A DNA stretch of 64,000 bases, from the NCBI RefSeq assembly GCF_009914755.1, contig NC_060925.1. One strand, given 5' to 3'. Numbering within the stretch: the first letter of the stretch is position 1; the number at the start of each line of letters is the position of its first letter. A program made the translations under genes and the position numbers. The notes under the pieces were generated by a model that was not told the origin of the DNA, did not search any database, and was given only the letters and a program-made list of their open reading frames with translations. This DNA is from the human T2T-CHM13v2.0 reference genome, Homo sapiens. This document shows, piece by piece, positions 15,201 through 23,418 of the stretch.

Positions 15201-17932
15201 AGAAGAGAGAAGATCCAAATAAGCTCAATTAGAAAAAAATGGGAGATATTACAACCGATACCACAGAAACACAAAAGATTATTCAAGGCTACTATGAACA
15301 CCTTTATGCACATAAACTATAAAACCTAGAGGAGATAGATAAATTCCTGGAAATATACAACCCTCCTAGGTTAATCCAGGAAGATATAGAGTCTCTGAAC
15401 AGACCAGTAACAAGCAATGAGATTGAAATGGTAATAAAAATATTGCCCAAAAATGTCCAGGACCAGATGGATTTACAGCTGAATTCTATCAGACATTCAA
15501 AGAAAAATTGATACCAATCCTATTGATACTATTCCAAAAGATTGAGAAAGAGGGAATCCTCCCTAAATCATTCTATGAAGCCAGTATCACCCTAAAACCA
15601 AAAGCAGGGAAGGACATACAAATATAGAAAACTATATATTTGTATGGCCAATATTCCTGATGAACATGAATGCAAAAATCCTCAACAAAATACTAGCTAA
15701 GCGAATCTAACAGCACATCTAAAAGATAAACCATCATGATCAAGTGGGTTTCATACCAGGGATGCAGGGATGGTTTAACATACATAAGTCAATAAATCTG
15801 ATACACCACATAAAGAGAAAGACAAAACTTACATGATTATATCAATAGATGCAGAAAAAAGATTTGACAAAATCCAGCATCGCTTTATGATTAAAGCCCT
15901 CAGCAAAATCTGCATAGAAGGGACAAACCATAGGTATAAAAGCCATCTATGACAAACCCATAGCCAACATTATACTGAACGGGGAAAAATTGAAAGCATT
16001 CCTCTTGAGAATGAGAATGGAACAGGACAAGGATGCCCACTTTCGCCACTTCTATTCAACATAGTACTAGAAGTCCTAGCAAGAGCAACCAGACAGGAGG
16101 AAGAAATAAAGGGCATCCAAATTGGCAAAGAGGAAGTCAAACTGTTGCTGTTTGCTGATGATAGGATCATATGCCTAGAAAACCCTAAAGACTCATCCAA
16201 ATAGCTCCTAGAACTGGTAAATGAATTTAGCAAAGTTTCAGGATACAAAATTAATGTACACAAATCAGTAGCCCTGCTATACACCAACAGTGACCAAGCT
16301 GAGAATCAAATCAAGAACTTAACCCCTTTCACAATAGCCACAAAAATATTGAAATACTTAGGAATATACCTAACCAAGGATGGGAAAGACCTCTACAAGG
16401 AAAACTACAAAACACTGCTGAAAGAAATCATAGATGACACAAACAACTGGAAACACATCCCACGCTCATGGATGGGTAGAATCAATATTGTGAAAATGAT
16501 CATACTGCCAAAAGCAATCTACAAATTCAATGCAATCCCCATCAAAATACCACCATCGCTCTTCACAGAACTAGAAAAAAAATCCTAAAAATCATATAGA
16601 ACAAAAAGAGCCTGCATAGTCAAGGTAAGACTAAGCAAGAAGAACAAATCTGAAGGCATCACATTACTTGACTTCAAACTATGCTATAAGACCATACTCA
16701 CCAAGACAGCATGGTACTGGTACAAAAATAAGCACATAGACCAATGGAACAGAATAGAGAACCCAGAAAAAAGCTAAATGCTTACAGCCAAATGATCTTT
16801 GACAAAGCAAACAAAAACATAAAGTGGGGAAAGGACACCCTATTCAACAAATGGTGCTGGGATAATTGGCAAGCTACATGTAGAAGAATGAAACTGGATC
16901 TTCATCTCTCACCTTTTACAAAAATTGACTTAAGGTGGATGAAAGACTTAAATCTAAGACCTGAAACCATAAAGATTCTAGAAGATAACATTGGAAAAAC
17001 CCTTCTAGACATTGGCTTAGGCAAAGACTTTATGACCAAGAACCCAAAAGCAAATGCAACAAAAACAAAGATAAATAGATGGAACTTAATTAAACTAAAA
17101 AGCTTCTGCACAGCAAAAGAAATGATCAGCAGAGTAAACAGACAACCCACAGAGTGGGAGAAAATCTTCACAATCTATACATCTGACAGAGGACTAATAT
17201 CCAGAATCTCTACAAAGAACTCAAATCAGCAAGAAAAAAACAAACAATCCCATCAAAAAGTGGGCTAGGGACATGAATAGACAATTCTCAAAAGAAGATA
17301 TACAAATGGGCAACAAGCATATAGAAAAATGCTCAGTATCACCAATTATCAGGGAAATGCAAATCAAAACCACAGTGTGATACCCTCTCACTCCTGCAAG
17401 AATGGCCATAATAAAAAAAAATAGATGTTGGTGTGGATATGGTGAAAAGGGAACACTTTTACATTGTTGATGGGAATGTAAACTAGTACAAACACTATGG
17501 GAAACAGTGTGAGGAGATTCCTTAAAGAACAAAAAGTAGAACTGCCATTTGATCCAGAAATCCCAATACTGCCTATCTACCCAGAGGAAAAGAAGTGATT
17601 ATATGAAAAAAATTCTTGCACATGCATGTTTATAGCAGCACAATTAACAACTGCAAAAATACGAAAACAGCCCAAATGCCCATCAGTGAATGAGTGGATA
17701 AAGAAAATGTGGTATATATATAGCTACTCTGAGATAATACTACTCAGCCAAAAAAAAAAAAAAAAAAAAAAAAAAAAGTACAAAATAATGGCATTCACAG
17801 CAACCTGGATGGAATTAGAGACTATTATTCTAAGTGAAGTAACTTAGGAATGGAAAACCCAACATCATATGTTCTCATTCACATGTGGGAGCTAAGCTAT
17901 GAAGACGCAAAGGCATAAGGATGATACATTGG
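12293..17932 (+). mobile_element. L1PB (L1PB1/2-like) LINE-1: partial 5'UTR, ORF1, ORF2 and first part of the 3'UTR
   Basis: Decayed ORF1 (13270-13518 ...WDYVKHPNLRIIGVP) and ORF2 pieces (14476-14799, 16349-16588, 16744-17268); 3'UTR gagctaagctatgaagacgcaaaggcataag of L1PB type. Confidence 0.92.
14055..17847 (+). pseudogene. Disrupted L1 ORF2 (endonuclease/reverse transcriptase) of the L1PB
   Basis: EN motifs (TLNVNGLN, FNTPLT, DHSGIKLEI), RT region ctgtttgctgatgatagg (FADD), C-terminal WMELETIILSEV; many stops and frameshifts. Confidence 0.9.
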
Positions 17933-18940
17933 TCTTCTTTAGGTGGTTCCAAGAAGGCCGAATAGGAAGAGCTCCAGTCTGCAGCTCCCAGCGTGAGCGA
18001 CGCAGAAGACGGGTGATTTCTGCATTTCCAACTGAGGTACTGGATTCATCTCACTGGGGCTTGTCAAGACAGTGGGTGCAGCCCACAGAGCAGGGCAGGG
18101 CATCGCCTCACCCGGGAAGCACAAGGGGTCAGGGAATTCCCTTTCCTAGTCAAGGGAAGGGGTGACAGACGGCACCTGGAAAATTGGGTCACTCCCACCC
18201 TAATACTGCGCTTTTCCAATGGTCTTAGCAAACAGCACACCAGGAGATTATATCCCACGCCTGGCTCGGAGGGTCCCATGCCCATGGAGCCTCGCTCATT
18301 GCTAGCACAGCAGTCTGAGATCGAACTGCAAGGTGGCAGCGAGGCTGGGGGAGGGGTGCCCGCCATTGCTGAGGCTTGAGTAGGTAAACAAAGCAGCCAG
18401 GAAGCTTGAGCTGGGTGGAGCCCACCACAGCTCAAGGAGGCCTGCCTGCCTCTGTAGACTCCACCTCTGGGGGCAGGGCATAGCCAAACAAAAGGCAGCA
18501 GAAACCTCTGCAGACTTAATGTCCCTGTCTGACAGCTTTGAAGAGAGTAGTGGTTCTCCCAGCACAGAGTTTGAGATCTGAGAACGGACAGACTGCCTCC
18601 TCAAGTGGGTCCCTGACCCCCGAGTAGCCTAACTGGGAGGCACCCCCCAATAGGGGCAGACTGACACCTCACACAGCTGGGTACCCCTCCGAGACGAAGC
18701 TTCCAGAGGAACGATCAGGCAGCAACATTTGCTGTTCAGCAATATTCACTGATCTGCAGCCTCCGCTGCTGATACCCAGGCAAACAGGGTCTGGAGTGGA
18801 CCTCCAGCAAACTCCAGCAGACCTGCAGCTAAGGGTCCTGACTGTTAGAAGGAAAACTAACAAACAAAAAGGATATCCACACCAAAACCCCATCTGTATG
18901 TCACCATCATCGAAGACCAAAGGTAGATACAACCACAAAG

Positions 18941-19966
18941 ATGTGGAGAAACCACAGCAGAAAAGCTGAACATTTTAAAAATCAGAGCACTTCTTCTCCT
19001 CCAAAGGAACGCAGCTCCTCGCCAGCAACAGAACAAAGCTGGGCAGAGAATGACTTTGATGAGTTGAGAGAAGAAGGCTTCAGATGATCAGTAATAACAA
19101 ACTTCTCTGAGCTAAAGGAGGATATTCAAACCCATTACAAAGAAGCTAAAAACCTTGAAAAAAGATTAGATGAATGGCTAACTAGAATAAACAGTGTAGA
19201 GAAGTCCTTAAATGACCTGATGGAGCTGATAACCATGGCAAGAGAACTACATGATGCAGGCACAAGCTTCAGTAGCCAATTTGATCAAGTGGAAGAAAGG
19301 GTATCAGTGATTGAAGATCAAATGAAAGAAATGAAGTGAGAAGAGAAGTTTAGAGAAAAAAGAGTAAAAAGAAACAAACAAAGCCTCCAAGAAATATGGG
19401 AATATGTGGTAAGACCAAATCTACGTCTGATTGGTGTACCTGAAAGTGACAGGGAGAATGGAACCAAGTGGGAAAACACTCTTCAGGATATTATCCAGGA
19501 GAACTTCCCCAACCTAGCGAGGCAGGCCAACATTCAAATTCAGGAAATACAGAGAATGCCACAAAGATACTCCTCGAGAAGAGCAACTCCAAGACACATA
19601 ATTGTCAGATTCAACAAAGTTGAAATGAAGGAAAAAATGTTAAGGGCAGCCAGAGAGAAAGGTTGGGTTACCCACAAAGGGAAGCCCGTCAGACTAACAG
19701 CGGATCTCTTGGCAGAAGCTCTACAAGCCAGAAGAGAGTGGGGGCCAATATTCAACATTCTTAAAGAAAAGAATTTTCAACCCAGAATTTCATATCCAGC
19801 CAAACTAAGTTTCATAAGTGAAGGAGAAATAAAATCCTTTATAGACAAAGAAACGCTGAGCGATTTTGTCACCACCAGGAGTGCCTTACAAGAGCTCCTG
19901 AAGGAAGCACTAAACATGGAAAGGAACGACCAGTACCAGCCACTGCAAAAACATGCCAAATTGTAA
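18941..19966 (+). pseudogene. L1 ORF1p, with premature stops in the N-terminal part
   Basis: C-terminal frame 19406-19966 RPNLRLIGVPE...YQPLQKHAKL is L1 ORF1p; in-frame TGA codons upstream. Confidence 0.92.
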
Positions 19967-20029
19967 AGACTGTTGATGCTAGGAAGAAACTGCATCAACT
20001 AATGAGCAAAATAACTAGCTAACATCATA

Positions 20030-22505: not shown

Positions 22506-22974
22506 AATAAAAAAAAAACTTCTCACTCAAGAAATATTTCTAAGCCAGTTCATATGCTGCAGAGAAAAGGCTGAGTGAGCTGACTGGCGATAGCACATGG
22601 ACCAGCTTTTATGAGATCCTTCTGATTGTAATTCAGTGTGGCTTAATAATTAAGGCTATAAGCTGTGAAGATGAAGTGGTGTTTTCATTGTGGAGAAAAG
22701 CATGGTCATGGTTTCCATAGTATGGGTACAACTGAAAGGGTGGAAAGAACAAATCAAGGAAAAGGAAAATCTCATCCACTAGGGTGAAGCGATTTGCTCA
22801 TGACCTTCATATGGAACATGCAGGATTTGTAGGGAGTAATCAGAAAAGCATCTTTCATTTTCTCTATCAGTAACCCTTTAAATGTCCTCAGTGTGGGTTT
22901 TCCTCCCAAAATAGAAACTTGAGCAATCTTATAATTTTTCCAGTAATATCCAGATAATAAAAAGCCCTATTGTC

Positions 22975-23187
22975 TGAGAACACCTGGACACAGGAAGGGG
23001 AACAGCACACACTGGGGTATGTCTGCGGTTGGGGGTTGGGGGAAGGAAGTGCATCAGTATAAGCTAATGCATGCGTGGCTTAATACCTAGGTGATGGGTT
23101 GACAGGTGCAGCAAACCACCATGGCACACATTTATGTATGTAAGAAGACTGCACGTACTGCACACGTATCCCAGAACTTAAAATAAA
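22975..23187 (+). mobile_element. L1PA11-13-like 3'UTR fragment
   Basis: gctaatgcatgcgtggcttaatacctaggtgatgggttgacaggtgcagcaaaccaccatggcacac...gaacttaaaataaa. Confidence 0.85.
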
Positions 23188-23212
23188 TTGTTTTTAAAAA
23201 AAAGAAGAAAAA

Positions 23213-23418
23213 AAGAATGATACATTGGACTCTGGGGACTTGGGGGGAAGGGTGGGGGCTGGTGAGGGATAAAAGACTACACATTGGGTACAGTGTACAC
23301 TGCTCGGGTGATAGGTGCACCAGAATCTCAGAAATTACCACTAAATACCTTATCCATTAAAACAAACACCACCTGTTCCCCAAAGCCCTATTGAAATAAA
23401 ACAATAATAAAAAAAAAA
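23213..23418 (+). mobile_element. Resumed 3'UTR and A-tail of the L1PB
   Basis: aagaatgatacattggactctggggact...gataaaagactacacattgggtacagtgtacactgctcgggtgat directly continues the sequence broken at 17932. Confidence 0.9.

What the first reader, a model, noticed from the sequence alone, without database searches (positions are those of the whole stretch)
17917..23228. TSD-bounded 5.3-kb chimeric retro-insertion: L1PA5 5' half + foreign DNA + borrowed L1 3' end + poly(A)
Seen: the L1PB 3'UTR breaks after aaggatgatacattgg (17917-17932) and resumes with aagaatgatacattgg (23213-23228), a 16-bp TSD with 15/16 identity. Between them lie 8 extra nt, an L1PA5-like element intact at its 5' end but stopping in ORF2 (17941-21164), ~1.8 kb of non-L1 DNA, an L1PA11-13-like 3' fragment, AATAAA (23182-23187) and an A-tail (23196-23212). 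Established: a TSD plus poly(A) at an A-rich site is the hallmark of L1 target-primed reverse transcription; L1 insertions are normally 5'-truncated, not 3'-truncated. Inference: one RNA, started at the L1 promoter and ending in unrelated genomic sequence, was retrotransposed as a unit. It could be a 3' transduction that lost its RT half, a non-autonomous L1-headed composite mobilised in trans, or a template-switch chimera. A repeat annotator would list it as about seven unrelated pieces.
Basis: partly seen in the sequence, partly recalled or inferred. Interest (0 to 1): 0.88.

Follow-up and report, generated by a model that had tools for sequence, protein, structure and literature searches.

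The report
L1 head fused to copied DNA
A 5.3-kb fossil insertion joins the front half of a LINE-1 element to a 2-kb RNA-derived copy of DNA from 95 Mb away on chromosome 1, an unusual but explicable by-product of ordinary LINE-1 retrotransposition with no sign of function.

Summary
A 16-nt duplication (17917-17932 / 23213-23228, 15/16) brackets the block. In 17 of 19 uninterrupted relatives of the host L1 the two flanks overlap by exactly those 16 nt.

Inside the block:
- 8 filler nt.
- An L1 that starts at its true 5' end and stops near ORF2 codon 378. ORF1 and endonuclease domains are present, with no RT.
- 2.03 kb of other DNA.
- A 17-nt A-tail.

The 2.03 kb has exactly one paralogue, chr1:98,204,724-98,206,730. 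There the old L1 3' fragment carries both copies of its own 16-nt duplication. The window keeps only the upstream copy and has poly(A) after AATAAA. So the window copy is the retrocopy.

- The junction is unique in the genome, so there is no composite family.
- No L1 lies within 100 kb upstream of the parent.
- The junction looks like a deletion between imperfect 8-nt direct repeats (chance 0.5%).

Best reading, about 0.5: a 3' transduction from a lost source L1, then an internal deletion. Main rival, about 0.25: a two-RNA template-switch chimera. It is a rare member of known kinds, of modest interest.

The parts
16900..17932 (+). Host older L1 (3' part), left of the insertion; it extends further upstream than was read
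   Evidence: 3382 candidate relatives, with 90-94% identity over 17790-17932.
17917..17932 (+). Left copy of the 16-nt target-site duplication
17933..17940 (+). 8 extra nucleotides, neither host nor L1
   Evidence: most L1 relatives start aligning at 17941-17946; host homology ends at 17932.
17941..21164 (+). Young primate L1, 5' 3.2 kb: 5'UTR 17941-18940, ORF1 18941-19966 (2 stops), ORF2 from 20030 to about codon 378 (frameshifts and stops)
   Evidence: Pfam Tnp_22_trimer, Transposase_22, Tnp_22_dsRBD and Exo_endo_phos; no RT domain.
21157..21164 (+). Junction octamer GACTAATA (L1 version). The parent locus has GACTATCA in register, 6 of 8 identical.
   Evidence: chance 0.5%.
21165..22959 (+). 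Copy of chr1:98,204,724 onward: unique DNA, CT-rich repeats (21701-21879 and 22176-22234), a minus-strand Alu (21885-22175) and an old dispersed repeat (about 22334-22470)
22960..22975 (+). Single copy of the 16-nt duplication that flanks the old L1 fragment on both sides at the parent locus
   Evidence: two copies in L014, at 2487-2502 and 2731-2746; one copy in the window.
22976..23195 (+). Old L1 3' fragment copied from the parent, with AATAAA at 23182-23187
   Evidence: 81-84% identity to other L1 3' ends, 84.8% to the parent copy.
23196..23212 (+). A-tail (17 nt with two G), standing where the parent has the second duplication copy
23213..23228 (+). Right copy of the 16-nt target-site duplication
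23229..23420 (+). Host older L1, remaining 3' end with its own A-rich tail

Best explanation
This is one L1 retrotransposition product, roughly 13-21 Myr old, inserted into the 3' end of an older L1.

Proposed sequence of events:
1. A full-length L1 of L1PA4/5 age once lay upstream of chr1:98,204,724 on an allele that is absent from this assembly.
2. Its transcript read through its own poly(A) signal and at least 2 kb of flank. It bypassed three AATAAA motifs and one ATTAAA motif, and was polyadenylated at the AATAAA of an old L1 3' fragment.
3. That RNA was reverse-transcribed in cis by target-primed reverse transcription at a loosely endonuclease-like site (AT/AAGA). This gave a 16-nt TSD and a full-length 5' end.
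4. The L1's 3' 2.9 kb, its tail and the proximal transduced DNA were then lost. The loss was a deletion between two imperfect 8-nt direct repeats: GACTAATA in ORF2 and GACTATCA in the flank. The upstream copy was kept. This happened either during second-strand synthesis or repair at integration, or afterwards.

Shown:
- the TSD;
- the single-copy site in host relatives;
- the true L1 5' end;
- the parent locus and the direction of copying;
- RNA-type 3' end formation;
- the uniqueness of the junction;
- the equal age of the two halves.

Inferred:
- the lost source L1;
- that a single RNA was the template;
- the deletion mechanism and its timing.
For: 1. One TSD pair and one A-tail bound the whole block.

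2. The 3' 2.03 kb is colinear with one locus only, chr1:98.2 Mb.

3. That locus has both copies of the old L1 fragment's own 16-nt TSD. The window has only the upstream copy, followed by poly(A) 8 nt after AATAAA. So the copy was made from a polyadenylated RNA.

4. The two halves are the same age. The L1 half differs from the majority of its 11 nearest relatives at 51 of 1815 columns, or 2.8%. The unique parts differ from the parent at 78 of 1237 sites, or 6.3%, which is about 3.2% per branch, or 2.6% per branch at non-CpG sites.

5. Junction anatomy. L1 relatives read [GACTAATA]AAGAAG, the parent reads [GACTATCA]CTAGAG, and the window reads [GACTAATA]CTAGAG. An in-register 6-of-8 similarity on that side occurs by chance in 0.5% of 400,000 random pairs. 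A first-strand template switch that used this homology would keep the parent's version. A plus-sense L1 3' end annealing to parent-derived minus strand, as in a deletion or a second-strand slip, keeps the L1 version, which is what is seen.

6. From established knowledge (recalled): L1 cis-preference explains why an obscure, unspliced, repeat-rich stretch of a gene-poor region was mobilised at all. Source L1s absent from a reference assembly are documented (PMC9311842, passages read: Table 4 lists 51 non-reference against 217 reference L1 sources).
Against: - No L1 5'UTR, ORF1 or ORF2-5' sequence lies in chr1:98,096,001-98,222,000. The best hit is 48 nt at E=0.002, while a control query from the host L1 gave 29 hits.
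- No second copy exists of the parent's upstream DNA that could mark sibling transductions. The three searches covered 7,878 of the 8,715 nt upstream. In one search only 40 of 4,169 candidates were scored, so a weak sibling could have been missed.
- A transduction of at least 2 kb is long.
- The junction has only 1 nt of perfect overlap, and the octamer similarity was noticed post hoc.
- Two rare things are required: a lost source L1 and an internal deletion.
Confidence: 0.5

Rival explanations
1. Two-RNA chimera. L1 ORF2p began target-primed reverse transcription on an independent polyadenylated transcript of chr1:98.2 Mb. At or near that RNA's 5' end it jumped to L1 RNA, or to an L1 RNA fragment ending in ORF2, and then ran to the L1 cap. 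This is the mirror image of U6/L1-type chimeras.
For: - The parent locus shows no L1 within 100 kb upstream and no sibling transductions.
- The block has one TSD pair, one tail and the same orientation throughout, and the two halves are the same age.
- Chimeric retrogenes with these hallmarks are known (PMC2104539, passages read).
- Law & Burns 2025 argue for two-RNA recombination when no L1PA5 lies in the donor gene (sections 3, 19 and 24 read).
Against: - The 6-of-8 in-register similarity on the not-yet-copied side, with the L1 version retained, has to be coincidence (0.5%).
- On the already-copied side L1 (AAGAAGAA) and parent (CTAGAGTT) match at only 2 of 8 positions (read).
- The 5' partner is not a full-length RNA copy, as it is in the described chimeras.
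- Trans-mobilisation of an unspliced, repeat-rich transcript from a gene-poor region is rare (established knowledge, recalled).
Confidence: 0.25
2. Nested two-step origin. A full-length L1 inserted first and made the 16-nt TSD. Later a 5'-truncated retrocopy, or an orphan transduction, of the chr1:98.2 Mb RNA primed in that L1's A-tail. Its 5' end was attached 2.9 kb upstream by microhomology, which deleted the L1's 3' half. This would be an insertion-mediated deletion.
For: - The geometry fits.
- The junction's imperfect homology, with the L1 (target top-strand) version kept, is what microhomology-primed second-strand synthesis predicts.
- A-tails are good endonuclease targets (recalled).
- Insertion-mediated deletions are known (listing only; otherwise recalled).
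Against: - It needs a rare retrocopy to hit the tail of a same-age full-length L1 and also to cause a kb-scale deletion.
- The L1 half is not older than the copied half: 2.8% against about 3.2% per branch. So the two events would have to be close in time.
Confidence: 0.07
3. Composite non-autonomous element. The deletion happened in the source locus DNA, and the 5.3-kb L1-headed RNA, which lacks RT, was mobilised in trans. This would be HAL1-like or SVA-like.
For: - The structure starts at the L1 promoter end and ends at a borrowed poly(A) signal.
- ORF1 domains are retained.
Against: - The junction 24-mer occurs 1 time in the genome at up to 2 mismatches.
- The non-L1 part has only the parent and this copy.
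- No truncated L1 lies at the parent locus.
- Trans-mobilisation of RT-less L1 RNA is inefficient (recalled).
Confidence: 0.04
4. DNA-level rearrangement, for example a duplication captured during break repair, with no RNA intermediate for the 2-kb piece.
For: Both copies lie on the same chromosome.
Against: - The copy ends 8 nt after an AATAAA in a 17-nt A-tail, exactly where the parent continues with unrelated DNA.
- The whole block sits between a 16-nt TSD at a single-copy site.
- The L1 part starts at the L1 transcription start.
Confidence: 0.02

Closest known systems
L1 3' transduction (read-through of the L1 poly(A) signal; PMC9311842 passages read; Moran 1999, Goodier 2000 and Pickeral 2000 recalled)
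   Same: A sense-oriented L1 is followed by unique DNA from one other locus. The block ends at a downstream AATAAA plus poly(A), all within one TSD pair.
   Different: The L1's own 3' 2.9 kb and its tail are missing between the L1 and the transduced DNA. No source L1 is present at the parent locus in this assembly. The transduced length of at least 2 kb is unusually long.
Template-switch chimeric retrogenes (Buzdin/Gogvadze type; PMC2104539 passages read)
   Same: A bipartite structure in one orientation, directly joined, poly(A)-tailed and flanked by a 10-20-bp TSD. The 3' part is a 5'-truncated RNA copy.
   Different: In that family the 5' part is a full-length RNA copy and the 3' part is usually L1. 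Here L1 is the 5' part and is cut internally, and the 3' part is not an L1 transcript.
mRNA/lncRNA-L1 5' chimeras (Law & Burns 2025 preprint, sections 3, 19 and 24 read)
   Same: A unique transcript piece and an L1PA-age L1 lie in one TSD-bounded insertion. The same argument arises about an absent L1 at the donor locus.
   Different: Their pipeline looks only at sequence 5' of an L1 3' end. Here the non-L1 part is 3' of an L1 5' half, and the junction is not at a splice site.
HAL1 'half-L1' non-autonomous elements (PMC5753468 passage read)
   Same: An L1 derivative that keeps ORF1 and lacks RT.
   Different: HAL1 is a multi-copy family with an L1 3' end of its own. This is a single copy with a unique junction.
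SpIREs, spliced retrotransposed L1s (PMC5860796 passages read)
   Same: An L1 with its 5' end intact and an internal piece missing, inside a TSD.
   Different: SpIRE deletions are bounded by splice donor and acceptor sites. Here L1 continues with AA and the parent is preceded by CA or TC, with no GT...AG.
L1 insertion-mediated deletion (search listing only; Gilbert 2002 and Han 2005 recalled)
   Same: A microhomology-type 5' junction with loss of upstream target DNA could give the same end product.
   Different: It would need a pre-existing full-length L1 at the site. There is no evidence of an intermediate, and the halves are the same age.

Membership tests
L1-mediated (TPRT) retro-insertion | A target-site duplication flanking the whole insert at a site that is single-copy before insertion | tested here: met
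   16 nt, 15 of 16 identical. 17 of 19 host-L1 relatives show the two flanks overlapping by exactly 16 nt.
L1-mediated (TPRT) retro-insertion | A 3' poly(A) not encoded at the parent locus, downstream of a poly(A) signal | tested here: met
   A-tail at 23196-23212, 8 nt after AATAAA. Beyond the first four A's that it shares with the tail, the parent continues with GCCCTATTGTCT....
L1-mediated (TPRT) retro-insertion | An endonuclease-type target (TT/AAAA) | tested here: inconclusive
   The inferred pre-insertion site reads AT/AAGA, matching 4 of 6 positions. The consensus motif is as quoted in Law & Burns, section 3.
L1 3' transduction | Transduced DNA maps to one locus and ends at a downstream poly(A) signal | tested here: met
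L1 3' transduction | The L1's own 3' end and A-tract lie between the L1 body and the transduced DNA | tested here: not met
   The L1 stops at about ORF2 codon 378 and is joined directly to parent DNA. This must be explained by a deletion.
L1 3' transduction | A source L1 immediately upstream of the transduced DNA at the parent locus | tested here: not met
   None within 100 kb upstream in this assembly. Other haplotypes and other species are not testable here.
Template-switch chimeric retrogene (Buzdin type) | The 5' part is a full-length copy of an RNA | tested here: not met
   The L1 has its 5' end but lacks its 3' 2.9 kb.
Template-switch chimeric retrogene (Buzdin type) | The 3' part is a 5'-truncated RNA copy in the same orientation, joined directly, and the whole is flanked by direct repeats | tested here: met
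   Whether the parent RNA really extended further 5' is unknown.
Non-autonomous composite family (HAL1- or SVA-like) | Several dispersed copies sharing the composite junction | tested here: not met
   The junction 24-mer has 1 match in the genome at up to 2 mismatches. The non-L1 part has 2 copies in total.
SpIRE / spliced L1 chimera | The deletion is bounded by GT...AG splice sites | tested here: not met
   L1 relatives continue with AAGAAG (10 of 11). The parent is preceded by ...TATCA.
L1 insertion-mediated deletion (nested) | An intermediate state (intact target L1) in species that diverged between the two events | not testable with these tools

The most novel reading that the evidence does not exclude
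This is a true two-RNA chimera in the orientation opposite to all catalogued L1 chimeras. ORF2p primed on a non-L1 polyadenylated RNA in trans and then finished on L1 RNA from mid-ORF2 to the cap. Bait-based and 5'-flank-based censuses would miss this class by design, so its frequency is unknown.
Probability: 0.25. Interest if true: 0.55.

Novelty: new member of a known kind. Interest (0 to 1): 0.3.

Why it matters
It is a clean, fully resolved example of how L1 activity shuffles unrelated DNA. The parent locus, the direction of copying, the RNA 3' end and the junction can all be read from the sequence.

It shows that repeat annotation fragments such events into unrelated pieces.

It also points to a blind spot. 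Current chimera censuses look at sequence 5' of L1 3' ends, so insertions made of an L1 head and a non-L1 tail are not counted.

The copy itself is decayed (stops in ORF1 and ORF2, no RT), single and in a gene-poor region. No functional consequence is indicated.

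Tried and rejected
- Canonical splicing or trans-splicing at the junction: rejected, because there is no GT after the L1 break and no AG before the parent start.
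- Premature polyadenylation of L1 RNA at the AATAAA that spans the break: rejected, because the break lies inside the hexamer and there is no A-run.
- A composite family: rejected.
- A cis L1 at the parent locus: none in 126 kb.
- Sibling transductions from the parent's upstream DNA: none. The three searches covered 7,878 of 8,715 nt. The Alu-bearing stretches were left out, and only 40 of 4,169 candidates were scored.
- Other shared DNA between the 64-kb window and the parent neighbourhood: only Alu and L1 repeats.
- APOBEC-type editing as the cause of the excess divergence in the old L1 fragment: rejected, because G>A accounts for 1 of 31 changes.
- Gene context of the parent: only a PX-domain gene 335 kb downstream could be placed. 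That it is SNX7 is recalled, not tested.
- Buzdin 2003, Buzdin 2004 and Gilbert 2005 are not held, so what I say of them is recalled.
- My paper searches surfaced no census of chimeras with an L1 head and a non-L1 tail. This is not proof that none exists.
- Relatives of the L1 5'UTR could be judged only from the hit table, because no more genome letters could be cut out.
- Subfamily names were not testable.

Full report
**1. Observation**

The window was read at 16900-24200.

- The 16-mer at 17917-17932 recurs at 23213-23228 with one mismatch (family D10).
- These are the only two matches in 64 kb at up to 2 mismatches. 0.06 are expected, and 0 of 100 shuffles reached 2.
- To test that the host element is really interrupted there, the left flank (17790-17932) was searched in the genome. 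Both flanks were then aligned to 19 fetched relatives.
- In 17 of 19 relatives the two flanks abut with exactly 16 nt of overlap, so the uninterrupted element has the 16-mer once. In the other 2 of 19 (L030, L032) the right flank aligned only partly, so they say nothing.

**2. The L1 half**

- Thirty-nine genomic relatives of 17933-18400 start aligning at query positions 2-28, mostly 9-14. The L1 therefore begins at about 17941, at its natural 5' end, and 17933-17940 is filler.
- ORF1 (18941-19966) has two stops.
- ORF2 starts at 20030 and is frameshifted.
- Pfam finds the three ORF1 domains and the endonuclease domain, and no RT domain (run on stop-free stretches).
- Eleven close relatives of 20760-21164 are 97-98% identical to it. 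Ten of the 11 continue with AAGAAG... after GACTAATA, while the window switches to CTAGAG... at 21165. One relative has a 9-nt gap there.
- The break is at about ORF2 codon 378.
- The 5'UTR is about 1.0 kb. By recall, this fits L1PA4 or older rather than L1PA3-1.

**3. The other half and its parent**

- Window 21150-21700 has two matches in the genome: itself and chr1:98,204,716-98,205,255, at 91%.
- Window 22235-22990 likewise matches itself and chr1:98,205,780-98,206,517, at 92%. The other 38 listed hits cover only an old dispersed repeat at query positions 96-281.
- The alignment is colinear from window 21157 to 23198. It includes the CT-rich repeats, the minus-strand Alu and the old L1 3' fragment, so all of these predate the event.
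- At the parent, the old L1 fragment is flanked by its own 16-nt duplication, at L014 2487-2502 and 2731-2746.
- The window has that 16-mer once, at 22960-22975. In place of the second copy it has a 17-nt A-tail starting 8 nt after AATAAA.
- This fixes the direction. The chr1:98.2 Mb locus is the parent, and the window copy came from an RNA polyadenylated at the old L1's signal.
- Three other AATAAA motifs and one ATTAAA motif in the copied strand were bypassed.
- Nothing else in the window is shared with the 126-kb parent neighbourhood except Alu and L1 repeats.

**4. Age**

- The unique parts differ from the parent at 34 of 528 and 44 of 709 sites, or 6.2-6.4% (5.2-5.4% at non-CpG sites). 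That is about 2.6-3.2% per branch.
- The L1 half differs from the majority of its 11 nearest relatives at 51 of 1815 columns, or 2.8%. Two of the 11 relatives aligned poorly over part of the range. The relatives were also chosen for similarity, so 2.8% is a low estimate.
- The two halves are therefore of the same age.
- At a recalled neutral rate of about 0.15-0.2% per Myr, this is roughly 13-21 Myr. That agrees with L1PA4/5 loci dating to after the ape-monkey split (Law & Burns 2025, section 19 read).

**5. What the parent locus does not show**

- The L1 half has no match in chr1:98,096,001-98,222,000. The best hit is 48 nt at E=0.002, while a control query from the host L1 found 29 hits to old L1 fragments.
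- The junction 24-mer is unique in the genome.
- Searches with 7,878 of the 8,715 nt upstream of the parent segment found no second copy that would mark sibling transductions. In one search only 40 of 4,169 candidates were scored.

**6. The junction**

- L1 relatives read [GACTAATA]AAGAAG.
- The parent reads [GACTATCA]CTAGAG.
- The window reads [GACTAATA]CTAGAG.
- So the joint looks like a deletion between two imperfect 8-nt direct repeats that kept the upstream copy. Only 1 nt of the overlap is perfect.
- A similarity of 6 of 8 in register occurs in 0.5% of 400,000 random octamer pairs drawn from the same sequences.
- On the other side of the joint the two sources match at 2 of 8 positions.
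- A minus-strand cDNA that used this homology to switch templates would carry the parent's version. The L1 version is expected instead if a plus-sense L1 3' end annealed to parent-derived minus strand. That happens in end-joining, in a second-strand slip, or in a later deletion.
- There are no splice signals at the joint.

**7. Weighing**

- All the evidence fits a single TPRT product. The open question is whether the template was one read-through RNA from a source L1 that is no longer present, or two RNAs.
- For one RNA: the junction homology and L1 cis-preference.
- For two RNAs: the empty parent locus.
- Probabilities:
  - 0.5 for a transduction followed by a deletion;
  - 0.25 for the two-RNA chimera;
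  - 0.07 for a nested insertion with insertion-mediated deletion;
  - 0.04 for a trans-mobilised composite;
  - 0.02 for a DNA-level event.
- These weights rest partly on rough rates recalled from the literature, not on counts made here.

**8. Comparison with known kinds, and novelty**

- The product works like a 3' transduction, but it fails two of that family's defining features as tested here: it has no L1 3' end, and there is no source L1 in this assembly.
- It resembles template-switch chimeric retrogenes (PMC2104539), but fails the feature that the 5' part is a full-length RNA copy.
- It is not a family like HAL1 (PMC5753468) and not a SpIRE (PMC5860796).
- The recent census of L1 chimeras (Law & Burns 2025) looks only 5' of L1 3' ends, so it would not list this insertion.
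- Kojima 2010 (PMC2912911, Table 1) left 387 of 6,197 human-specific TSD-flanked insertions uncharacterised. That group includes internal deletions, 3' truncations and template switches, so such oddities are expected.
- Verdict: a real, rare, well-resolved member of known kinds, with no indication of function.

Noticed in passing
window 22976-23195 versus L014 2503-2730: The old L1 3' fragment differs from its parent copy at 31 of 218 sites (14.2%). The adjacent unique DNA differs at 78 of 1237 sites (6.3%); Fisher p = 2e-4. The parent copy is barely closer (84.8%) than unrelated L1 3' ends (81-84%). There is no G>A bias. This is unexplained.
   Followed up: partly
L013 8403-8715 (chr1:98,204,403-98,204,715): The copied segment starts within about 8 nt of the end of a high-copy old repeat (4,169 candidate copies). 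In other copies the two pieces lie in the opposite relative orientation. By recall this looks like a 5'-inverted old L1 fragment. The coincidence of boundaries may be chance.
   Followed up: partly
L014 about 2715-2730 versus window 23180-23195: The poly(A) signal reads AATAAA in the retrocopy but AATGAA followed by a 10-A run in the parent today. The parent's signal has therefore changed, or the A-run has changed length, since the copy was made.
   Followed up: no
window 17750-17777: A pure run of 28 A inside the host old L1 body, upstream of the insertion. It may be a microsatellite expansion or the remnant of another event.
   Followed up: no
window 21842-21867: A 26-nt CCTT-type stretch next to the Alu is present in the retrocopy and absent from the parent. 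The CT-rich repeats differ by 10-19% between the copies, which indicates microsatellite instability.
   Followed up: no
window about 22334-22470: An old dispersed repeat inside the copied DNA. 38 listed genomic matches have 72-81% identity. The family was not named.
   Followed up: no
G000:C1:98,539,207-98,539,807 (+): PX-domain exons 335 kb downstream of the parent locus. By recall this is taken to be SNX7. The parent therefore seems to lie in a gene-poor interval, whose annotation could not be consulted.
   Followed up: no
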